Source: a bacterium (lineage in GTDB: Bacteria; Muiribacteriota; UBA6191). From it: DNA of 64,000 nucleotides. The DNA lies in assembly GCA_036339875.1 (NCBI GenBank), contig JAYZAC010000095.1, forward strand, positions 10,046 through 74,045. The letters run 5' to 3'. The number at the start of each line of letters is the position of its first letter. Position 1 is the first letter of the stretch. The position numbers and the translations under genes are program-made. Below the pieces are notes generated by a model, which was given only the letters and a program-made list of their open reading frames with translations, searched no databases and was not told where the DNA came from. Below, piece by piece: positions 25,971 through 33,333 of the stretch.

Positions 25971-26929
25971 AACTCCCCCTCATAGGCCTGAATAAAATCT
26001 CCATCTCTAAGCTGCGCACCTGCAAGAAACTGTTTCACCGGCATCCGTTTTTTCCCTTCTAATTGAATTTCAAGTAAACTAGCTTGTCCACCTTTTAATT
26101 CCATTATAAGCGACTTATTGGCATCAATTCGTATCCTACCAGGTTGCATATTCGAGTTATTCGGCCTCCACTTCATATCCCACACTATTAACTTTTTATT
26201 CTTCCAACTAAATACTAATCCGTAATGATCTCTTAAAGCCCTCCATTGGTTAAAAATTTGACTCCCACTATCTCCAAAATTAACATATGCATCTCTTCTT
26301 GTGATTTTTGCAGCATATGTAACACCGGAAGATACTTGTTTTACTCGGTTTGCATCGAAGTTAGAATTTTTGTGCAATACTTCCAATAATAATTTTGAAC
26401 AACTCTGTTGCATGTGCTCCGAAAGTTCTCGAATTGACCAGTCTGGGCTAATACTGAAATTCTCTTTCAGTAAGACATCCCCCTCATCTAATCCAGCAGT
26501 CATATCCATAATACACATAGCTGTTTGATGATCACCCTCGATCAAACAACGCTCCATGGGAGCGGCACCTCGCCAGCGCGGTAAAGCTGAAGCATGTCCA
26601 TTAAGAAAGGAAAATTTTGCGGTATCAAGAATTCTTTGGGGCAAAATCTGTCCATAAGCCACTACTACTCCAAAATCAGGATTTATTTCTCTTAGAAGAT
26701 ACAAAGGTGCAAGCTTCTTCATTGAAACTGGCTGATTGACCGATATTCCAAATTTTAACGCAGTTTCTTTAACCGGAGGTGCCTTCAAAATTCTCTTACG
26801 CCCGTAAGGCTTATCAGGCTGAGTAAAAACCGCCTCTATAGATAATTGTTCATCCAAGACTATATCCTCGAGCACTTTAGCTGAAAACTGTGAACTCCCA
26901 AAGTAGACAATTTTAGTCTTTTTACTCAT
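25967..26929 (-). CDS. fmt: methionyl-tRNA formyltransferase
   Basis: N-terminal formyl-transferase fold (KIVYFGSSQFS...), LNGHASALPRWRGAAP, C-terminal Fmt domain. AAGGA RBS 8 nt upstream. Confidence 0.85.
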   Translation of the reverse strand: MSKKTKIVYFGSSQFSAKVLEDIVLDEQLSIEAVFTQPDKPYGRKRILKAPPVKETALKFGISVNQPVSMKKLAPLYLLREINPDFGVVVAYGQILPQRILDTAKFSFLNGHASALPRWRGAAPMERCLIEGDHQTAMCIMDMTAGLDEGDVLLKENFSISPDWSIRELSEHMQQSCSKLLLEVLHKNSNFDANRVKQVSSGVTYAAKITRRDAYVNFGDSGSQIFNQWRALRDHYGLVFSWKNKKLIVWDMKWRPNNSNMQPGRIRIDANKSLIMELKGGQASLLEIQLEGKKRMPVKQFLAGAQLRDGDFIQAYEGEF

Positions 26930-29165
26930 GTTTTTGTCCTTTCATACGGAGCATAATGATACACTGAGGATGGTGAAGACATCTAAGAAAAACAACAAGG
27001 CCGATCTTTTGAGATCTCTAATTCTCGATTTATTAGCTCAAAACAACCCAAAGGGCCTTTCATTCAAAGGAATCTTACAGAACCTTCCTGCCCAATATTC
27101 ACACCGGTCTATTGTCAAATCAGAAATAAGTCAATTATTGAGCGAAAGACTGATCAATCGCAAAGGTAAAGGCTATCGAATCAATCTTAAACACAAAAAT
27201 TCTGAACAAAAAAATCATCGTGAAACTTATGAGGGCATTGTCCAAAAACAAAAGTCGGGAACTTTGCTCATCCCCCTTAATGACAAGTTAATTAAAGTTT
27301 ATCCAGAAAATACTAAAGGCGCATTAGCTGGTGATAAAGTTCGCTTACAAATTACACAACGTCGCAACAATGGAACATTAATTGGCCGTATCACAAAAAT
27401 ATTAGAGAGAGGAACCTCAAGAATTCTATTTAAGAAAAGTAGGGGTAGATTAATCCCACATACCCCACTTCCGCTTCCTATTATTTTAAGTCCAAAATAT
27501 AAAAGAAAGAAATTAGAAGAGAATTGTTGGTATCTCGCTGAACCAACAGACAGAATATCAACTGAATACATAGAAATTGATGTGCTAGAAAAGGCCTCCG
27601 ACCGTTATGATCTAGATGCACAAAGTCTTCTAGCTCAGTACGATATCCCAATAGAATTTACAACCAAAGTTATTGATTCAATCGATAACAATCCAGCTGA
27701 ATTATGCGAACGTGTAGATATTACGGATCAAGTTTGTTTTACAATTGATGGTGCCACTGCAAAAGATTTCGACGATGCCATTAGTATTCAGAGGCATGGT
27801 AATGACTTCAAATTAGGCGTACATATTGCAGATGTAAGCCATTTTGTGCGACCTGATAGTCTTCTTGATGAATGCGCCAGAAACAGAGGTACCTCTTTAT
27901 ACTTTCCCAGACTTGTGGTTCCAATGTTACCTGAGGAGCTTAGCAACAATTTATGTAGTCTAATACCTGATGAGGATAGACACGCTATGACTTGTGAAAT
28001 GCTATTCAGCGCCAAGGGGCATTTAAAAAAGGCTTGGTTTTTCCCATCTAAAATTCGATCAAGACAAAGATTCACTTATGAACAAGTTCAGTCAATCTAT
28101 GAAGGTGAAATCTCTCATCAATATGAATGCCAAATAAAAGATTGTTTTGAATTATACAAAGCTCTTTGGGACCAGCGACTTAAACGAGGCACTATTGATT
28201 TCGACCTACCAGAGCCCCAGATAATATTAGATGAAAATTACAATGTAGATAGTATCACACCGCTAGAAAGAGTCGACGCACATAAAATGATAGAAGAGTT
28301 CATGATCGCAGCAAATGTTTCTATAGCAAAATTTTGCGCTCAGCAGTGCATCGTCGCTCCGTTTCGACATCACGGAACACCACGCGCTGAAGGTGTAGAA
28401 GAATTGCGACTCACACTAAATTCGGTTGGGATTAATACTAAACAATTGGAACTCAATTCACCTAAAACATTTCAAAATATTCTTAATCAATGTAAGGAAG
28501 AGGTAAAACCTTTTATACAACCATTGATACTTAGATCGATGCAACAAGCTTTTTATTCCGTTGAGAAATCTGAACACTTTGGTTTAGCACTTGAATATTA
28601 CTGTCACTTCACTTCTCCCATTCGCCGCTATCCAGATTTGATTGTGCATCGTCAAATGCGTCAATTTGTTATCGAAAATGATCTTAAACTACCCTTTCCT
28701 ATTCATCCGTTTAAACTTGGTTACAGAAAAAAATTACAAAATCCAAAATTATCTGAGGCCTCTAAAATCGCTCAAAAAAGTTCTCAATTAGAAAGACGAG
28801 CTGTTGAATTAGAAAGAGAATACCAACAACGTAAAAAAGTTACGTTCATGCAACAGTTTATAAATCAGGAATTTACAGTTCGAGTTAGCGGGATTGTCAA
28901 ATCAGGCATATTCGCTTGTATACCCGAATATGGAGTAGAAGGATTTATTGCATTAACAGAATTACCAGGCTACTGGGAATTTAATGAACAAAAGTCTGAA
29001 TTTAGTCAAAATCCTAGAAGTAAAAATCGATTAAGACCAGGCGATACACTAGATATCTGCATTGCGAAAGCTGACAAAGATGAGTCCCGTATCGATTTTA
29101 GACTGAGCGATAATCAGTGGGCTATTTTCAATAATCTCCGAAGGACCCCCGGTAAAACCAGATGA
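26928..29165 (+). CDS. rnr: ribonuclease R (RNB family 3'-5' exoribonuclease)
   Basis: RNB catalytic region (CFTIDGATAKDFDDAISI...GVHIADVSHFV...LYFPRLVVPMLPE), C-terminal S1 domain. The exact start is ambiguous; the track ATG at 26928 overlaps the fmt start codon on the opposite strand, and MVKTSKK at 26970 is an alternative. Confidence 0.85.
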   Translation: MFLSFHTEHNDTLRMVKTSKKNNKADLLRSLILDLLAQNNPKGLSFKGILQNLPAQYSHRSIVKSEISQLLSERLINRKGKGYRINLKHKNSEQKNHRETYEGIVQKQKSGTLLIPLNDKLIKVYPENTKGALAGDKVRLQITQRRNNGTLIGRITKILERGTSRILFKKSRGRLIPHTPLPLPIILSPKYKRKKLEENCWYLAEPTDRISTEYIEIDVLEKASDRYDLDAQSLLAQYDIPIEFTTKVIDSIDNNPAELCERVDITDQVCFTIDGATAKDFDDAISIQRHGNDFKLGVHIADVSHFVRPDSLLDECARNRGTSLYFPRLVVPMLPEELSNNLCSLIPDEDRHAMTCEMLFSAKGHLKKAWFFPSKIRSRQRFTYEQVQSIYEGEISHQYECQIKDCFELYKALWDQRLKRGTIDFDLPEPQIILDENYNVDSITPLERVDAHKMIEEFMIAANVSIAKFCAQQCIVAPFRHHGTPRAEGVEELRLTLNSVGINTKQLELNSPKTFQNILNQCKEEVKPFIQPLILRSMQQAFYSVEKSEHFGLALEYYCHFTSPIRRYPDLIVHRQMRQFVIENDLKLPFPIHPFKLGYRKKLQNPKLSEASKIAQKSSQLERRAVELEREYQQRKKVTFMQQFINQEFTVRVSGIVKSGIFACIPEYGVEGFIALTELPGYWEFNEQKSEFSQNPRSKNRLRPGDTLDICIAKADKDESRIDFRLSDNQWAIFNNLRRTPGKTR

Positions 29166-29182: not shown

Positions 29183-30379
29183 TTACTGCTTGCTAACTCT
29201 CAGACGACTAATTCGGCGTGCGTCTGCCTCGAGTATTAAAATTCTCAAACCTTGCAAACTTATCAAGGTCCCTCTATTAGGAATCCCACCACAATATTCT
29301 AGTAAAAATCCATTGACGGTTTTCGATCTAGTCTCAGGTATGCTTAGTTGAAAATATTCAATGAACTCGTCTAAATCCATAACCGCATCTACAAGATAGG
29401 TATCGCTACTCAGTTTCCTGAGACTAGATTGATCAAATTCATCCTCAATTTCCCCTACCAATTCCTCTAAAATATCCTCCATAGTGAGAATCCCTAAACT
29501 TTTGTCCTCACTACTTACTATGGCGAACTGACGCTTATTCTGCTGAAAAATCTCTAATGCTTCGTAACATGAGCAAGTTGGAACCATCGTAATCACTTCA
29601 TCCATATGTTCTCTTACAGATTCACCCAGATGCCTTAGGAGTGGTAATTGATTAGCTCTAAATATACCCACTACATTATTCTCATGTGAAACTACGGGAT
29701 AACGCGAAAATCCGTGTAATCGTGCATTATCAAGAGCTTCGATTGTGCTACAGGATTCCGATATACTAATCATTCTCGTTAGAGGTGTCATAATGCTATC
29801 GATGCGAGTTTCAAATAAATTATCGACTTGTCTTAAGATTTCGCGCTCTTCTTGATCTAGGTCCTGCTCATCTTGTTTTTGAGCCAGATCTAATGATGTT
29901 CTCATCATATATTCTTTTAAGCGAAGATTAAGCTGACCCCACAAATCGCGCCCTAGAACTCCAATGGCTAAACCCTCTTCTAGTTTACTAAGGCTCAGAA
30001 AGGGACCCGAAAATCGCTCATACAGACCAATCAGTACATGTATGATTCCAGTATTTTTATTAATGATCCATCTATCCAAACTAATACAAAAAACAAAGTA
30101 GCTTAACAGAATCGAACAACAGATGATGGTCAAGTCCAAAGACTCAAACCAAGGCTGACATACCGCTACAAACAAAGGGGAAATAGCCAATACAAAGTAG
30201 ATGCAATTAAACCATAACTCGCGGCTACTATAATAAGCTTTTGACTCGTCAAACTTACGCTCATCTAAAATCGTTGAGTCAAAGCTTGGTATACAACCTG
30301 CAAGCGATAACACACGAACTATCCCTAACCGTCTTAAGAATAAAAAGAATAGGCCCCATATAATACAAAATACTGTCAT
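29183..30379 (-). CDS. CorC/HlyC family protein (DUF21-CBS pair-CorC_HlyC)
   Basis: N-terminal TM helices, CBS pair (IMTPLTRMISI...), C-terminal transporter-associated domain (GTLISLQGLRILILEADARRISRLRV). Confidence 0.75.
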   Translation of the reverse strand: MTVFCIIWGLFFLFLRRLGIVRVLSLAGCIPSFDSTILDERKFDESKAYYSSRELWFNCIYFVLAISPLFVAVCQPWFESLDLTIICCSILLSYFVFCISLDRWIINKNTGIIHVLIGLYERFSGPFLSLSKLEEGLAIGVLGRDLWGQLNLRLKEYMMRTSLDLAQKQDEQDLDQEEREILRQVDNLFETRIDSIMTPLTRMISISESCSTIEALDNARLHGFSRYPVVSHENNVVGIFRANQLPLLRHLGESVREHMDEVITMVPTCSCYEALEIFQQNKRQFAIVSSEDKSLGILTMEDILEELVGEIEDEFDQSSLRKLSSDTYLVDAVMDLDEFIEYFQLSIPETRSKTVNGFLLEYCGGIPNRGTLISLQGLRILILEADARRISRLRVSKQ

Positions 30380-31455
30380 GAAGCAACCTTCTTTACAGCC
30401 ACCTTACGGAGACGATAATTCTCTAACTCAAGTACGTGAAATTCTAAATCTTGAAGTTTCAAGCTATCTCCAGCACTAGGCAAATAACCAAAATGCTGAA
30501 ATACATATCCACCAAGAGTTTCAACTTCCTCATCTTCACTGGATAAAGAACAACCGATAATCTCCTCTACATCATCTAAATCGATTTTAGCATCAAAAAC
30601 CCATTGCTTACCCTCAGAAGTATGCAATAAACTTTCATCATCATTTCGACGGTCTTGCACATCTCCAACAATTGTTTCCATAAGATCCTCTAGAGTAACA
30701 ATTCCTGTGATCACTCCAAATTCATCAACTACAATTGCCATCTGAATCATACGTTTTTGAAATTCTTGCAATAAAACCAATTGCGACATTAATTCAGGAA
30801 CGTAATATGCCTCTTTAATATGTTCCACCACGGAGAAGGAACTCAACTCGATATTCGAAAGCTCGGTAACATTGCAGTTTTCATAGGCATCTGAGATTTT
30901 ACCGATAAGGTGCTTCGTGTAAATTATGCCAACGATATTGTCTTTTTCACCCTCAAAAACAGGAATTCTCGAATAAGGAGTAAAATCAGAATGTGCAAGC
31001 AGACCTGCGATATTTTGCTTTGACGATATTTTGAAAACGTCGTTGATTGGAACCATAGCTTCCTTCACAGAACCATCTGCAAAATCAAACAAACCTTCTC
31101 TCAGTCGTTCTCGAGAGTCTTGATCTAAATTATCAGAAGGTGAGTCAACTTTCGAAGTCGAGAAACAAATCATCCTAGGTAAATAATGCGAAAAAACAAG
31201 AAGCAAAAGTAGAAAAATTCGTTTATCTAGACTATCAACGCCAGATAAATACAACTTGAATTCATAGAGCAGTAAACTAAGCATCATCAAAACAAGCAAC
31301 TCATACAACATTGAGCTCCGTAGAAAACTGGGCAAATCTCTATTAAACTCTAAACTTCTTCTTAAAAATCGATAGCAAGCAAAGGCTAACGATACAATTA
31401 TTATAATCCAAAGCTCATAATTCACTTTTTTGAGACTCCCACTCCAGAAAATCAT
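30376..31455 (-). CDS. CorC/HlyC family protein (paralog)
   Basis: CBS pair (AMVPINDVFKIS...) and CorC_HlyC C-terminus (GDSLKLQDLEFHVLELENYRLRKVAVK). 4-nt overlap with the downstream paralog. Confidence 0.75.
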   Translation of the reverse strand: MIFWSGSLKKVNYELWIIIIVSLAFACYRFLRRSLEFNRDLPSFLRSSMLYELLVLMMLSLLLYEFKLYLSGVDSLDKRIFLLLLLVFSHYLPRMICFSTSKVDSPSDNLDQDSRERLREGLFDFADGSVKEAMVPINDVFKISSKQNIAGLLAHSDFTPYSRIPVFEGEKDNIVGIIYTKHLIGKISDAYENCNVTELSNIELSSFSVVEHIKEAYYVPELMSQLVLLQEFQKRMIQMAIVVDEFGVITGIVTLEDLMETIVGDVQDRRNDDESLLHTSEGKQWVFDAKIDLDDVEEIIGCSLSSEDEEVETLGGYVFQHFGYLPSAGDSLKLQDLEFHVLELENYRLRKVAVKKVAS

Positions 31456-32866
31456 TTAAAATTTCATACTGAACTTTCATCATCTGCTTATAATCATTTT
31501 CATTTTTATGAGTCCACCCGTGTAAATGTAACAGTCCATGAATTATCAAGAAAAAAGTAAGTTTCAACTGAGATTTTAATCCAAATTGATCCTCCATAGC
31601 ATTTACACATAAATAAATATCACCCATAGAACCCAAGGGATCATTCTCAGGAGCCTCAAGTTCAAAAGTCAATATATCGGTTGCCCCAGATTTACCTCGA
31701 TAACTTTGGTTCAAATCTGCCATTTGTAAGTCATTCAAAAACGTAACACTCAATTGTCGATAAAATCTAACATCGCCTCTTTCAATTATTTTGCCCCAAC
31801 AATAAGTCAAAAAAGTCTCAAAAGAGTCACTTGATATCTCCTCAGGTAATGAATTTACTTCAAACAATGGAGTTTCTTCCGTCGAAGCTTGAATGTCAAT
31901 TGTATCTGACTTAGGCAAAAAACCATCGAGGTCAAGACTACTTTTTTGTACCTTAAATTCCTGCAAAATCAATCTCCCGCAACGATCTCTATCCACTTTT
32001 CGACCACTCAAAAAATAACCCTTCTTGGTCGCAATTAAATCTAAAAATTGCTCCCAATCTTGCAAAGCCTCACTCAGACTAACACCTAAAAAATTACTTT
32101 CTAAACCTTGATCAAATGAGTTTTTTAAGAGAAAAAATGCTAATTCCTCGTTATCGTATTCTTTATTCGAGATCATGCGGCAAAGAGCAAACTTAAGTCT
32201 TTGCTCCGTATCGCTAGCCTGCGCTAAAGTTGCTACTCCAGGTGTATCTAATAAATAACAGTTTTCTGATAATTTTATCCATTGACGACCTTTAGTAATA
32301 CCTGGAGCATTAGCTACACGAACGACTCGTTTTTTTCGTAAAGTATTTATCAGCGTCGACTTTCCTACATTGGGTAGCCCAACTACACAGATTCTTAGAA
32401 CTTTAAGAATCGAACTGGTAGGCATATATTTTTTGGTCAGTTGATCAAAGATCTTCAGTATTTGACCCGGCTTCTTAGTTGTTTCAATTGCTACTGCAGC
32501 TAATCCACGATTCTTAAATTCTGCTATTACAGCATCTCTGTAGAAATCGCTAACTAAATCAGCCTTGCTTAAGAAAATGACTCGGGCCTTTGATTCAAAT
32601 TTAGTATCTAAAAAACGAACTCTAGAACTTATCGGTAGACGAATATCGCGTATTTCAATTACAAGACTGCAATCCTTTATATCTTGATAAATAGTTGGTG
32701 TAGAGGACTTCGTCGATTTAGAACTGGACTTACTTTTGACGGTAGTCTTTATCGATGCGCCTTTCTTGCTAGTTCTAGAAGTGGAATTAGGCTTAGGGTC
32801 ACAATTATTTGTGGAACACCACTTTTTAGCTTTAGTGTTAGGTTTATTGCGTTTTGCTCGGGGCAT
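31415..32866 (-). CDS. fusion protein: circularly permuted ribosome-biogenesis GTPase RbgA/YlqF (N-terminal) plus endoribonuclease YbeY (C-terminal)
   Basis: A single uninterrupted 483-aa frame. The N-terminal Lys/Ser/Thr-rich tail is followed by the RbgA motif order DIRLPISS, SKADL (G4), GLPNVGKST (G1), PGITKG (G2), DTPGV (G3). The C-terminal roughly 140 aa are YbeY-like (SVTFLNDLQMADLNQSYRGKSGATDILTF, HGLLHLHGWTH zinc triad). It follows rplS as ylqF does in Bacillus, and precedes corC as ybeY does in ybeZ-ybeY-ybeX. Confidence 0.7.
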   Translation of the reverse strand: MPRAKRNKPNTKAKKWCSTNNCDPKPNSTSRTSKKGASIKTTVKSKSSSKSTKSSTPTIYQDIKDCSLVIEIRDIRLPISSRVRFLDTKFESKARVIFLSKADLVSDFYRDAVIAEFKNRGLAAVAIETTKKPGQILKIFDQLTKKYMPTSSILKVLRICVVGLPNVGKSTLINTLRKKRVVRVANAPGITKGRQWIKLSENCYLLDTPGVATLAQASDTEQRLKFALCRMISNKEYDNEELAFFLLKNSFDQGLESNFLGVSLSEALQDWEQFLDLIATKKGYFLSGRKVDRDRCGRLILQEFKVQKSSLDLDGFLPKSDTIDIQASTEETPLFEVNSLPEEISSDSFETFLTYCWGKIIERGDVRFYRQLSVTFLNDLQMADLNQSYRGKSGATDILTFELEAPENDPLGSMGDIYLCVNAMEDQFGLKSQLKLTFFLIIHGLLHLHGWTHKNENDYKQMMKVQYEILNDFLEWESQKSEL

Positions 32867-32901: not shown

Positions 32902-32934
32902 AAAGACCGGTCATTGAGATATAAACCGGTCTTT
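32902..32934 (-). terminator. hairpin (possible terminator/attenuator) between rplS and the rbgA-ybeY gene
   Basis: Perfect 10-bp inverted repeat AAAGACCGGT / ACCGGTCTTT with a 13-nt loop. On the minus strand the stem is followed by TTTTGT. Confidence 0.45.
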
Positions 32935-32967: not shown

Positions 32968-33333
32968 CTATTTCTCGCCATCTTTGCGAGTGCGTATCTT
33001 TATTTTGGTAGCACGCTTCCCTACTCTATCTCTTAAATAGAACAGTTTAGCTCGTCGAACCTTACCTGACTGAATCACTTCGACTTTTTCAATAGAGGGT
33101 GAATGATATGGGAAGACGCGCTCAACACCAATTCCCCCACTAATTTTCCGCACTCGGAACGTTTTATTGGTACTGCCATGCTTGCGGCCGATACATATTC
33201 CCTGAAACTGCTGAATTCGCTCTTTATTACCTTCGGTAACTTTCACATGTACACGAACCGTGTCTCCCACTCTAAAATCGGGATAGTTCTTTTCGACTTC
33301 AGCTTCTTTATTTAACTGCTGGATCAAATCCAT
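32968..33333 (-). CDS. rplS: 50S ribosomal protein L19
   Basis: Whole-length match to bL19 ([39 protein letters not shown]...). 121 aa. Confidence 0.95.

What the first reader, a model, noticed from the sequence alone, without database searches (positions are those of the whole stretch)
31415..32866. RbgA (YlqF) GTPase fused in-frame to YbeY endoribonuclease at the junction of two conserved syntenies
One 483-aa ORF carries the circularly permuted GTPase motif order of RbgA ([33 protein letters not shown]) followed by a full YbeY domain (RGKSGATDILTF, HGLLHLHGWTH). It sits directly after rplS, where ylqF/rbgA sits in Bacillus-type operons, and directly before two corC/HlyC genes, where ybeY sits in ybeZ-ybeY-ybeX operons. 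A 50S assembly GTPase covalently coupled to the 16S 3'-end / 70S quality-control nuclease is not an arrangement I know as standard. There is also a roughly 60-aa Lys/Ser/Thr-rich N-terminal extension. The 41-nt overlap with the first corC start suggests translational coupling.
Basis: partly seen in the sequence, partly recalled or inferred. Interest (0 to 1): 0.6.

Follow-up and report, generated by a model that had tools for sequence, protein, structure and literature searches.

The report
Ribosome-assembly GTPase fused to YbeY
In one uncultured, apparently marine bacterial lineage, two neighbouring ribosome-biogenesis genes (a YlqF/RbgA-type GTPase and the zinc enzyme YbeY) have merged into a single conserved 483-residue protein; the fusion is real and undescribed in the papers I could search, but it most likely arose simply by loss of the stop codon between two overlapping genes.

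Summary
Window 31415-32866 (minus strand) is one 483-aa ORF with five parts:
- a disordered basic N-terminal tail (residues 1-56);
- a circularly permuted YlqF/RbgA-type GTPase (57-230);
- the RbgA C-terminal helical domain (231-318);
- a disordered linker of about 15 residues;
- a complete YbeY domain with an intact H-x3-H-x5-H zinc motif (334-483).

It is not an assembly artefact. Eight protein clusters (64-100% identity) from independent assemblies carry the same fusion, both folded modules are under purifying selection, and the linker drifts neutrally.

Sister lineages (Cloacimonadota MAGs) have the same operon with ylqF and ybeY as separate genes: overlapping by 4 or 16 nt, in frame with only stop codons between them, or separated by a 7TM-HD gene. 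The fusion therefore arose by stop loss between adjacent genes. A second, independent fusion exists in a high-GC lineage.

The GTPase is atypical because it lacks RbgA's N-terminal PGH/His9 catalytic region. A 2026 preprint recasts YbeY as a uS11 isoaspartylase rather than a nuclease.

I found no evidence that the two halves work as a joint machine, and an RbgA-RNase HII neighbour fusion argues for caution. It is a new variant of a known kind (YbeY-Era fusions are known), of moderate interest.

The parts
31415..32866 (-). Fused ylqF(rbgA-like)::ybeY gene, 483 codons plus stop
   Evidence: A single ORF. Both families are detected by Pfam and NCBIfam. The same architecture occurs in P0001-P0008.
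32699..32866 (-). N-terminal basic Lys/Ser/Thr-rich extension (residues 1-56). It stands where canonical RbgA has CR1 (PGH/His9) and contains a conserved C-x4-C (residues 17-22, window 32801-32818).
   Evidence: pI 11.0. pLDDT is about 45-51. dN/dS is 0.26-0.39. The PDB 1PUJ alignment starts only at B. subtilis residue 18. The C-x4-C is visible in the alignment.
32177..32698 (-). Circularly permuted GTPase domain (residues 57-230): CR2-like DIRLPISS at 32624-32647, G4 SKAD at 32558-32569, G1 GLPNVGKS at 32357-32380, G2 PGITKG at 32288-32305, G3 DTPG at 32237-32248
   Evidence: Motif coordinates. Invariant columns. dN/dS is 0.02-0.05. Foldseek matches to 1PUJ and 3CNN have target TM-scores of 0.72-0.73.
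31913..32176 (-). RbgA C-terminal helical (ANTAR-like) domain (residues 231-318), ending in the conserved LDLD motif
   Evidence: Aligned to B. subtilis RbgA through residue 271. Helices 239-310 have pLDDT above 90. dN/dS is 0.06-0.11.
31868..31912 (-). Inter-domain linker (residues 319-333, KSDTIDIQASTEETP), standing where the former ylqF stop and ybeY start were
   Evidence: pLDDT is below 50 for residues 321-329. Amino-acid identity is 12-38% and dN/dS is about 0.8-2.7. Unfused relatives have their stop and start here.
31418..31867 (-). Complete YbeY domain (residues 334-483): YRGKSGATDILTF at 31664-31702, GD at 31613-31630, zinc motif HGLLHLHGWTH at 31508-31540
   Evidence: Pfam 85 bits and TIGR00043 84 bits, both above cut-off. 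Aligns from the first beta-strand of stand-alone YbeYs. Foldseek matches to 1OZ9, 1XM5 and 7Y7O have target TM-scores of 0.70-0.78 over about 148 columns. dN/dS is about 0.12.
32902..32934 (-). GC-rich hairpin (AAAGACCGGU...ACCGGUCUUU) followed by a U-run, between rplS and the fused gene; a terminator- or attenuator-like element
   Evidence: The fold and conservation of an equivalent hairpin in L004, L005, L006, L091 and L001. The simple scan did not call it because the loop exceeds 8 nt.
32968..33333 (-). rplS (ribosomal protein bL19), the upstream neighbour
   Evidence: Pfam Ribosomal_L19, 154 bits.
30376..31425 (-). First corC-like gene (CBS + CorC_HlyC). The start is placed at the GTG homologous to relatives' starts, which overlaps the fused gene by 11 nt.
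   Evidence: Pfam. Start inferred from L005 and L006.
29183..30379 (-). Second corC-like gene (CBS + CorC_HlyC), overlapping the first by 4 nt

Best explanation
This is a genuine, lineage-specific gene fusion between two ribosome-biogenesis genes that were already adjacent and translationally coupled.

**Origin.** The ancestral operon was ffh-rpsP-khpA-ylqD-rimM-trmD-rplS-ylqF-ybeY-corC-corC. In one clade of uncultured low-GC bacteria related to Cloacimonadota, the ylqF stop codon was lost or frame-adjusted. The result is a single polypeptide: basic disordered tail, cpGTPase, RbgA C-terminal RNA-binding domain, a disordered linker of about 15 residues, then YbeY.

**How it most likely works (inferred).** The two folded modules keep doing their separate ancestral jobs. 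The YlqF module binds late pre-50S particles. The YbeY module acts as the zinc-dependent uS11-directed enzyme needed to close the 30S platform. The flexible linker lets each act independently. The fusion mainly fixes 1:1 co-expression, which the overlapping genes already approximated.

**Shown:** the fusion, its recurrence, its origin from adjacent genes, the intact motifs, purifying selection on both modules and a neutral linker.

**Inferred:** that both modules are active and act independently.
For: **The fusion is real and conserved**
- Eight protein clusters at 64-100% identity from NCBI, ENA and Logan carry both domains.
- Fused ORFs were verified on DNA in L004, L005, L006, L090 and L091.
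- Fragment P0133 (98% identity) and P0135 (53% identity) also read across the junction.

**Origin from adjacent genes**
- The synteny is identical in relatives where the genes are separate. L001 and L093 have an ATGA 4-nt overlap. L009 and L094 have a 16-nt overlap. L007 and L008 are in the same frame, separated only by TAGTAG or by TAA plus 6 nt. L010 has a 7TM-HD gene in between.
- In an NJ tree of the YlqF domain the fused clade is monophyletic (100% bootstrap) and nested within the unfused Cloacimonadota-like proteins (100%).
- A second fusion (P0152, L081, 65% GC) sits in the same operon position. Its nearest relatives (L083, L085) have separate genes overlapping by 4 nt.

**Both modules are maintained**
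- dN/dS is 0.02-0.05 for the GTPase, 0.06-0.11 for the CTD and about 0.12 for YbeY, against about 1 for the linker.
- G1-G4 and the YbeY residues Arg59, Asp85 and H-x3-H-x5-H are conserved.
- The AF2 model gives both domains pLDDT above 90, with disordered residues 1-56 and 321-329 and pTM 0.59.
- Fold matches go to RbgA and to full-length YbeY structures.

**YbeY is made only as part of the fusion**
- No in-frame start codon is conserved at the YbeY boundary.

**Neighbour fusion is a general tendency of ylqF**
- P0143 is a YlqF-RNase HII fusion, that is, YlqF joined to its Bacillus-type downstream neighbour.
Against: - No biochemical or expression data exist for any member.
- The GTPase lacks CR1 (PGH/His9). 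In B. subtilis RbgA this region is required for 50S-stimulated GTP hydrolysis (PMC3597669, PMC6821245). 'Keeps its ancestral job' is therefore uncertain for that half.
- The ylqF-ybeY linkage recurs in at least three deep lineages and fusion occurred twice. That could mean the pairing is functionally meaningful rather than neutral.
- I could not check whether these genomes carry additional stand-alone ybeY, rbgA or era copies.
- Synonymous sites are close to saturation, so the dN/dS values are approximate.
Confidence: 0.72

Rival explanations
1. Functional tether. The fusion, and the recurrent adjacency behind it, reflects a real partnership. The YlqF module would deliver or time YbeY on ribosomal particles, coordinating late 50S maturation with uS11 modification and 30S platform closure. 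Alternatively this CR1-less YlqF subfamily may itself work with YbeY on the small subunit, as Era does.
For: - YbeY is already known to be fused to another assembly GTPase, Era, in some Clostridia and Selenomonadales (PMC10582724).
- YbeY interacts with Era and with the 50S-associated GTPase Der in two-hybrid assays (PMC5101352).
- ylqF-ybeY linkage is found in three deep lineages, with two independent fusions.
- The YlqF here is atypical: no PGH/His9, CR3 'ILWPK' replaced by 'VATLA', and a score below the equivalog cut-off.
Against: - The linker is disordered and evolves neutrally, and pTM 0.59 is consistent with no fixed inter-domain orientation, although the model's inter-domain confidence (PAE) was not available.
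- Most relatives keep the genes separate.
- YlqF also fuses to RNase HII, an unrelated neighbour.
- CR1-less YlqF also occurs in an rplS-ylqF-rnhB context without ybeY (L087).
- About 70 Firmicutes ylqF loci have no ybeY within 6 kb.
- In B. subtilis, RbgA sits in the 50S P site at the H69/H71 position (PMC6821245). I infer that this is sterically incompatible with a docked 30S subunit.
Confidence: 0.2
2. One half is no longer enzymatically active. For example, the CR1-less GTPase may have become a nucleotide-binding or rRNA-binding targeting module without ribosome-stimulated hydrolysis, so the protein is effectively a YbeY with an RNA-binding appendage.
For: - The PGH/His9 region is absent. 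H9A abolishes 50S-stimulated GTPase activity in B. subtilis (PMC3597669).
- NCBI annotates the protein only as 'rRNA maturation RNase YbeY'.
Against: - The GTPase domain is the most strongly constrained part of the protein (dN/dS 0.02-0.05), and G1-G4 are invariant.
- CR1 is also absent from the unfused relatives and from other phyla. Its loss therefore predates the fusion and is independent of it, and those stand-alone proteins are maintained.
Confidence: 0.06
3. Assembly or sequencing artefact: a lost stop codon or an indel merging two genes.
For: - In sister lineages one nucleotide change would be enough to merge the genes (L007/L008).
- The second fusion (P0152) rests on a single population: L081 and L082 differ at 1 base in 11 kb.
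- One 87.5-kb ENA contig yields only fragmentary gene calls, P0133 and P0134.
Against: - Eight diverged clusters (down to 64% identity) from different projects and assemblers keep the frame open through a linker that is itself highly variable.
- The break points of the P0133/P0134 fragments (residues 154, 291, 452) are not at the domain junction, and P0133 itself spans the junction.
Confidence: 0.02

Closest known systems
YbeY-Era fusion proteins (some Clostridia, Selenomonadales, Thermoleophilum album; reviewed in PMC10582724)
   Same: YbeY is covalently joined to a ribosome-assembly GTPase encoded next to it. The arrangement is rare and lineage-restricted, and is interpreted as a Rosetta-stone hint of cooperation.
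   Different: - The partner there is Era: a canonical G-domain plus KH domain, acting as a 30S platform factor. YbeY is N-terminal in those fusions.
- Here the partner is a circularly permuted YlqF/RbgA-type GTPase with an ANTAR-like C-terminal domain (a 50S factor in B. subtilis). YbeY is C-terminal.
Bacillus subtilis RbgA/YlqF (PDB 1PUJ, 6PPK)
   Same: - Circularly permuted G4-G1-G2-G3 order, a CR2-like DxRxPxSS motif and a helical C-terminal domain.
- The gene sits directly after rplS.
- It is the best sequence hit in the PDB, with a Foldseek target TM-score of 0.72.
   Different: - No CR1 (PGH/His9); a 56-residue basic tail stands in its place.
- The CR3 'GILWPK' is 'GVATLA' here.
- G4 is SKAD rather than NKAD.
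- The score is 174 bits, below the 208-bit TIGR03596 cut-off.
- It carries a C-terminal YbeY.
Stand-alone YbeY (E. coli 1XM5, S. aureus 7Y7O, A. aeolicus 1OZ9)
   Same: - Full-length fold (target TM-score 0.70-0.78).
- The H-x3-H-x5-H zinc site and the Arg59, Asp85 and TD-IL-[ST]F motifs are present.
- corC/ybeX lies immediately downstream, as in ybeZ-ybeY-ybeX operons.
   Different: - No start codon of its own, so it is made only as the C-terminal module of a 483-residue protein.
- No phoH/ybeZ lies directly upstream.
YlqF-RNase HII fusion
   Same: The YlqF C-terminus is fused to the product of its immediate downstream operon neighbour.
   Different: The partner is rnhB, which has no known role in ribosome biogenesis. 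It shows that ylqF neighbour fusions can arise without a functional partnership.

Membership tests
YlqF/RbgA ribosome-biogenesis GTPase (TIGR03596) | Circularly permuted G-domain with order G4-G5-G1-G2-G3 | tested here: met
   SKAD (100-103), GLPNVGKS (163-170), PGITKG (188-193), DTPG (207-210). The RsgA_GTPase and MMR_HSR1 Pfam families match.
YlqF/RbgA ribosome-biogenesis GTPase (TIGR03596) | Full-length match to the family model above the curated equivalog cut-off | tested here: not met
   174.4 bits against a cut-off of 208.2. Coverage is still near-complete (model positions 14-269 of 276), and the next-best GTPase family scores only 46 bits.
YlqF/RbgA ribosome-biogenesis GTPase (TIGR03596) | N-terminal CR1 with the PGH motif (catalytic His9 in B. 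subtilis) | tested here: not met
   The alignment to 1PUJ starts at B. subtilis residue 18. No [FYW]PGH[MLI] motif is present, whereas 210 of 279 collected homologues have one. The feature is described in PMC3597669 and PMC6821245.
YlqF/RbgA ribosome-biogenesis GTPase (TIGR03596) | C-terminal helical (ANTAR-like) RNA-binding domain | tested here: met
   Aligned to RbgA through B. subtilis residue 271. Helices 239-310 are confidently modelled. Foldseek matches to 1PUJ and 3CNN cover both domains.
YlqF/RbgA ribosome-biogenesis GTPase (TIGR03596) | Gene located downstream of rplS in the trmD-operon neighbourhood | tested here: met
   The same holds in all relatives examined.
YlqF/RbgA ribosome-biogenesis GTPase (TIGR03596) | Binds late pre-50S particles, with 50S-stimulated GTPase activity | not testable with these tools
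   Requires biochemistry or cryo-EM.
YbeY (PF02130 / TIGR00043) | Match above the curated cut-offs | tested here: met
   Pfam 85.1 bits (cut-off 25). TIGR00043 84 bits (cut-off 45).
YbeY (PF02130 / TIGR00043) | H-x3-H-x5-H zinc-binding motif plus conserved Arg59 and Asp85 (E. coli numbering) | tested here: met
   HGLLHLHGWTH at 443-453, YRG at 389-391, GD at 415-416. All are conserved in every fused homologue.
YbeY (PF02130 / TIGR00043) | Complete YbeY fold, including the N-terminal strand | tested here: met
   Foldseek matches to 1OZ9, 1XM5 and 7Y7O align 147-148 columns with target TM-scores of 0.70-0.78. The N-terminus aligns with those of stand-alone YbeYs.
YbeY (PF02130 / TIGR00043) | Acts on uS11 (Asn-to-isoAsp) and supports 16S 3'-end maturation | not testable with these tools
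   uS11 is not encoded in the window or in any fetched locus. The activity is reported in preprint 10.64898/2026.08.26.747345.
YbeY-Era fusion class | The GTPase partner is Era (Era-type G-domain plus KH domain), with YbeY N-terminal | tested here: not met
   Era models score no more than 39 bits and match only the P-loop region. There is no KH domain, and YbeY is C-terminal.
Rosetta-stone (adjacent-gene) fusion | The two components are encoded as separate adjacent genes in related genomes, with the fused form phylogenetically derived | tested here: met
   Separate genes in L001, L007-L010, L093 and L094. Tree topology.

The most novel reading that the evidence does not exclude
The recurrent ylqF-ybeY linkage and the two independent fusions may mark a genuine, previously unrecognised partnership. 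In this reading a CR1-less YlqF-type GTPase subfamily works together with YbeY: it might gate uS11 isoaspartylation and 30S platform closure on the state of the 50S subunit, or it might replace Era as YbeY's GTPase partner in these phyla. That would be a direct molecular link between large- and small-subunit maturation.
Probability: 0.15. Interest if true: 0.7.

Novelty: new variant of a known kind. Interest (0 to 1): 0.4.

Why it matters
YbeY is one of the most conserved and most debated bacterial ribosome-biogenesis factors, and a 2026 preprint reassigns it from RNase to uS11 isoaspartylase. Natural fusions are classic clues to functional partners. So far the only GTPase fusion discussed for YbeY is with Era, a small-subunit factor.

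A conserved fusion with a YlqF/RbgA-type GTPase, the large-subunit late-assembly factor in Bacillus, would point to cross-talk between the two subunits' maturation pathways if it is functionally meaningful. It would also supply a ready-made construct for testing that idea.

If the fusion is only a neutral merger of overlapping genes, which I consider more likely, it still has value:
- It documents stepwise gene fusion cleanly: separated, then adjacent, then overlapping or in-frame, then fused.
- It flags an annotation error: NCBI names the protein only 'YbeY'.
- It draws attention to a widespread RbgA subfamily that lacks the supposedly universal catalytic His.

Tried and rejected
- **Assembly artefact.** Rejected for the window's clade, because eight diverged clusters and several verified DNA loci keep the frame open.
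- **Internal initiation giving a stand-alone YbeY.** No in-frame start codon is conserved at the boundary in the four fused genes.
- **Strict link between loss of CR1/PGH and ybeY adjacency.** Rejected. L087 is PGH-less with rplS-ylqF-rnhB. L088 is PGH-less with a 7TM-HD gene between ylqF and ybeY.
- **Second ybeY copy in the window.** None found by tblastn.
- **uS11 target residue.** uS11 is not in the window or any fetched locus.
- **Rfam scan of the whole window.** No family reached its gathering score.
- **Third homologue search, with the YbeY domain alone.** It yielded only 5 hits because the word index gave few candidates. It did not deepen the alignment, though P0133 was informative.
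- **Simple terminator scan.** It missed the rplS-downstream hairpin because of its loop-length limit. Direct folding found it.
- **Literature.** Searches for RbgA/YlqF together with YbeY found no description of this fusion. The 2021 YbeY review was not in the searchable library.
- **Taxonomic name.** The source records say only 'bacterium'. Relatedness to Cloacimonadota rests on the nearest named homologues and on shared synteny.
Full report
**1. The observation**

Window 31415..32866 holds one uninterrupted 483-codon ORF on the minus strand.
- Pfam finds YbeY at residues 359-472 (85 bits, cut-off 25) and the MMR_HSR1, FeoB_N and RsgA_GTPase G-domain families at 59-225.
- NCBIfam's best GTPase model is TIGR03596 'ribosome biogenesis GTPase YlqF'. 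It scores 174 bits over residues 58-308, covering model positions 14-269 of 276, which is below the 208-bit equivalog cut-off. All other GTPase families score 46 bits or less.
- TIGR00043 'rRNA maturation RNase YbeY' scores 84 bits, above its 45-bit cut-off.
- The G motifs are in circularly permuted order: SKAD 100-103, GLPNVGKS 163-170, PGITKG 188-193, DTPG 207-210. The YbeY zinc motif HGLLHLHGWTH is at 443-453.
- Upstream is rplS. Downstream are two CBS/CorC_HlyC genes. Further upstream run trmD, rimM, ylqD, a KhpA-type KH gene, rpsP and ffh.

The minor corrections are the strand, the nature of 'DIRLPISS' (RbgA conserved region CR2) and the overlap with corC, which is 11 nt from the homologous GTG start at 31425 rather than 41 nt.

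**2. It is not an artefact**

A search of 5.8 billion proteins returned eight clusters (P0001-P0008, 64-100% identity) from NCBI, ENA and Logan assemblies. All are 455-483 aa long and all carry both Pfam domains.

I verified fused ORFs on the DNA of L004 (a 92-kb Logan contig), L005 and L006 (two MAGs), L090 and L091. Fragment P0133 (98% identity, from another 87.5-kb contig) and P0135 (53% identity) also read across the junction.

The linker is the most variable part of the protein, at 12-38% identity, yet it stays open in every sequence.

**3. Where it came from**

The nearest unfused YlqF proteins (42-52% identity) are annotated as Cloacimonadota. Their loci have the same gene order as the window, from ffh through rplS to the two corC genes, and they show a graded series at the ylqF/ybeY boundary:
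- L010: ylqF, then a 7TM-HD gene, then ybeY.
- L007 and L008: both genes in the same frame, separated only by TAGTAG or by TAA plus 6 nt.
- L009 and L094: a 16-nt overlap.
- L001 and L093: an ATGA 4-nt overlap.
- The window, L004, L005, L006 and L091: fused.

The N-terminus of stand-alone YbeY ('KPFFVNDLPEQF...') aligns with residues 332 onward of the fusion ('TPLFEVNSLPEE...'), so the whole YbeY is retained.

In a neighbour-joining tree of the YlqF domain the fused proteins form one clade (100% bootstrap), nested inside the unfused Cloacimonadota-like proteins (100%). The fusion is thus a derived state, produced by stop loss or a frame adjustment between adjacent, translationally coupled genes.

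**4. A second, independent fusion, and how far the linkage extends**

An exhaustive phmmer scan of 1.84 billion cluster representatives found only one other full-length fusion. This is P0152: 431 aa, 30% identity, with one alignment stretch covering query residues 62-471.
- Its locus (L081, 65% GC) reads ffh-rpsP-rimM-trmD-rplS-lepB-ylqF::ybeY-CNNM-CNNM.
- Its nearest relatives (P0280, P0281; L083-L086, 72% GC) have separate ylqF and ybeY genes with 4-nt overlaps in the same context, and it groups with them in the tree at 77% bootstrap.
- P0152 rests on a single population. L081 and L082 are identical in the gene and differ at 1 base in 11 kb. This second fusion therefore needs independent confirmation.
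- A third lineage (L088) has rplS-ylqF-[7TM-HD]-ybeY.
- By contrast, about 70 Firmicutes ylqF loci have no ybeY within 6 kb, and L087 and L089 have the Bacillus-type ylqF-rnhB arrangement.
- P0143 is a YlqF-RNase HII fusion. YlqF therefore tends to fuse with whatever gene lies downstream of it.

**5. State of the two modules**

Nei-Gojobori estimates on four fused genes are given below. Synonymous sites are near saturation, so the values are approximate.

| Region | dN/dS |
|---|---|
| GTPase | 0.02-0.05 |
| RbgA C-terminal domain | 0.06-0.11 |
| YbeY | about 0.12 (up to 0.21 in the most distant pair) |
| N-terminal tail | 0.26-0.39 |
| Linker | 0.8-2.7 |

- G1-G4 and the YbeY residues Arg59, Asp85 and the three histidines are conserved in all fused proteins.
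- An AlphaFold2 model built from a 73-sequence alignment has mean pLDDT 83.9 and pTM 0.59. Both domains exceed 90, while residues 1-56 and 321-329 fall below 50.
- Foldseek matches the N-terminal part to B. subtilis and T. maritima YlqF (target TM-scores 0.72-0.73). It matches the C-terminal part to full-length YbeY structures 1OZ9, 1XM5 and 7Y7O (0.70-0.78 over about 148 columns).
- No in-frame start codon is conserved at the YbeY boundary, so YbeY is probably made only as part of the fusion.

**6. What is atypical about the GTPase**

B. subtilis RbgA has an N-terminal region, CR1, with a PGH motif whose His9 is the proposed catalytic residue.
- H9A abolishes 50S-stimulated GTP hydrolysis.
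- CR1 is ordered by 23S helix 92 in the RbgA-45S complex.
- CR1 is described as conserved in bacterial RbgA and in mitochondrial Mtg1 (PMC3597669, PMC6821245).

Here the alignment to 1PUJ begins at B. subtilis residue 18. In place of CR1 there is a basic Lys/Ser/Thr tail (pI 11). The PGH motif is present in 210 of 279 collected homologues, but it is absent from the fused clade, from its unfused relatives, from lineage B and from some other groups. CR3 ('GILWPK') reads 'GVATLA' here.

The loss is not tied to the fusion, and it is not strictly tied to ybeY adjacency either. It does mean the protein should be called YlqF/RbgA-like rather than a proven RbgA orthologue.

**7. What YbeY does**

A 2026 preprint (10.64898/2026.08.26.747345) reports a different picture:
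- YbeY is a metzincin-like zinc hydrolase that converts Asn119 of ribosomal protein uS11 to isoaspartate.
- The first histidine of the zinc motif is required for this activity.
- The 16S processing defects follow from failed closure of the 30S platform.

On that view the YbeY module's substrate is a small-subunit protein, which it can bind off the ribosome. A flexible tether to a 50S-binding GTPase would not obviously help or hinder that.

**8. Mechanism and alternatives**

My best-supported reading (confidence about 0.7) is a two-module protein whose halves keep their separate functions. On this reading the fusion only hard-wires the 1:1 co-expression that the overlapping genes already gave.

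The main rival (about 0.2) is a true functional tether or partnership.
- In its favour: the known YbeY-Era fusions (PMC10582724), the two-hybrid interactions of YbeY with Era and Der (PMC5101352), the recurrence of the linkage, and the unusual GTPase.
- Against it: the neutral disordered linker, a pTM (0.59) consistent with no fixed inter-domain orientation, the rarity of the fused state, the RbgA-RNase HII precedent, and the binding of RbgA in the 50S P site at the H69/H71 position. I infer that this binding site is incompatible with a docked 30S subunit.

Loss of activity in one half (about 0.06) is disfavoured by the strong constraint on both modules. Artefact (about 0.02) is excluded for this clade.

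**9. Novelty**

I found no paper describing a YlqF/RbgA-YbeY fusion. NCBI's pipeline names the identical protein MEE2924119.1 simply 'rRNA maturation RNase YbeY'.

The closest described thing is the YbeY-Era fusion, which differs in three ways: the GTPase family, the domain order and the presumed target subunit. I rate this a new variant of a known kind, of moderate interest (0.4). It is real, clean and evolutionarily instructive, but it is confined to a small uncultured clade and is most simply explained as a merger of overlapping neighbours.

Noticed in passing
window 32699-32866 (residues 1-56); also P0009-P0012, P0136-P0140, P0152, P0280-P0286: A whole group of YlqF/RbgA-like GTPases lacks the N-terminal CR1 region with the PGH motif (catalytic His9 of B. 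subtilis RbgA) and carries a basic disordered tail in its place. This contradicts the published view that CR1 is conserved in bacterial RbgA. How these proteins hydrolyse GTP is unexplained.
   Followed up: partly
window 32801-32818 (residues 17-22, CSTNNC): A C-x4-C pair within the otherwise poorly conserved N-terminal tail is conserved in seven of the eight fused proteins aligned (P0006's called N-terminus is shorter and lacks it; the longer ORF at L006 has it) and in the unfused P0010 ('CKTDSC'). It could be half of a metal site; the related cpGTPases YqeH and RsgA have zinc fingers. AlphaFold2 models the region as disordered.
   Followed up: no
window 32902-32934 (minus-strand sense), between rplS and the fused gene: A 10-bp GC-rich hairpin followed by UUUUGU resembles an intrinsic terminator or attenuator. 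An equivalent hairpin is present in L004, L005, L006, L091 and L001. It suggests that ylqF::ybeY-corC-corC is expressed by read-through at a lower level than the ribosomal-protein genes upstream.
   Followed up: partly
window 26928-29165 (+): An RNase R gene (RNB and S1 domains) lies convergent to, and directly after, the corC pair. The same placement is seen in L004, and in L001 with three genes in between. RNase R is the published partner or antagonist of YbeY in 70S quality control, so the proximity may or may not be meaningful.
   Followed up: no
L081 8001-9296; L083 6912-7391; L085 6614-7084; L088 4745-5182: All four YbeY sequences examined from the high-GC lineage have Asp in place of the third zinc-ligand His (HGxLHLLxW[ED]D), and none has Arg at the Arg59 position. 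This is notable because the 2026 model has uS11 Cys121 displacing that third His.
   Followed up: partly
P0143 (479 aa): This protein is a YlqF-RNase HII fusion: ylqF merged with its Bacillus-type downstream neighbour rnhB. It is another undescribed architecture and serves as a control showing that ylqF neighbour fusions need not imply a functional partnership.
   Followed up: partly
P0122 = MEE2924119.1 (identical to the window protein): The public annotation names the 483-aa protein only 'rRNA maturation RNase YbeY', so the GTPase two-thirds of the protein is not reflected in its name.
   Followed up: yes
P0133 (163 aa) and P0134 (153 aa), ENA contig of 87.5 kb: At 97-98% identity to the window protein, the gene is called only as fragments (residues 1-154 and 291-452). 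This is probably due to indel errors in that assembly. The breaks are not at the domain junction, and P0133 spans the junction.
   Followed up: partly
window 29183-31455 (-) compared with L081 9326-11657: The two tandem corC-like genes in the window's lineage have hydrophobic N-terminal regions but give no Pfam CNNM/DUF21 hit. Their counterparts in the high-GC lineage do hit PF01595. The tandem duplication is conserved across both lineages.
   Followed up: no
window 1-64000: No Rfam family reached its gathering score anywhere in the 64-kb window, so there are no tRNA, rRNA, riboswitch or leader matches.
   Followed up: no
L010 6805-8436; L088 2614-4734: In two lineages a 7TM-HD (YqfF/PgpH-like) gene sits between ylqF and ybeY. 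This is the Firmicutes-type upstream neighbour of ybeY. It suggests that the rplS-ylqF and 7TM-HD-ybeY-corC blocks were joined first and the 7TM-HD gene was lost later.
   Followed up: partly
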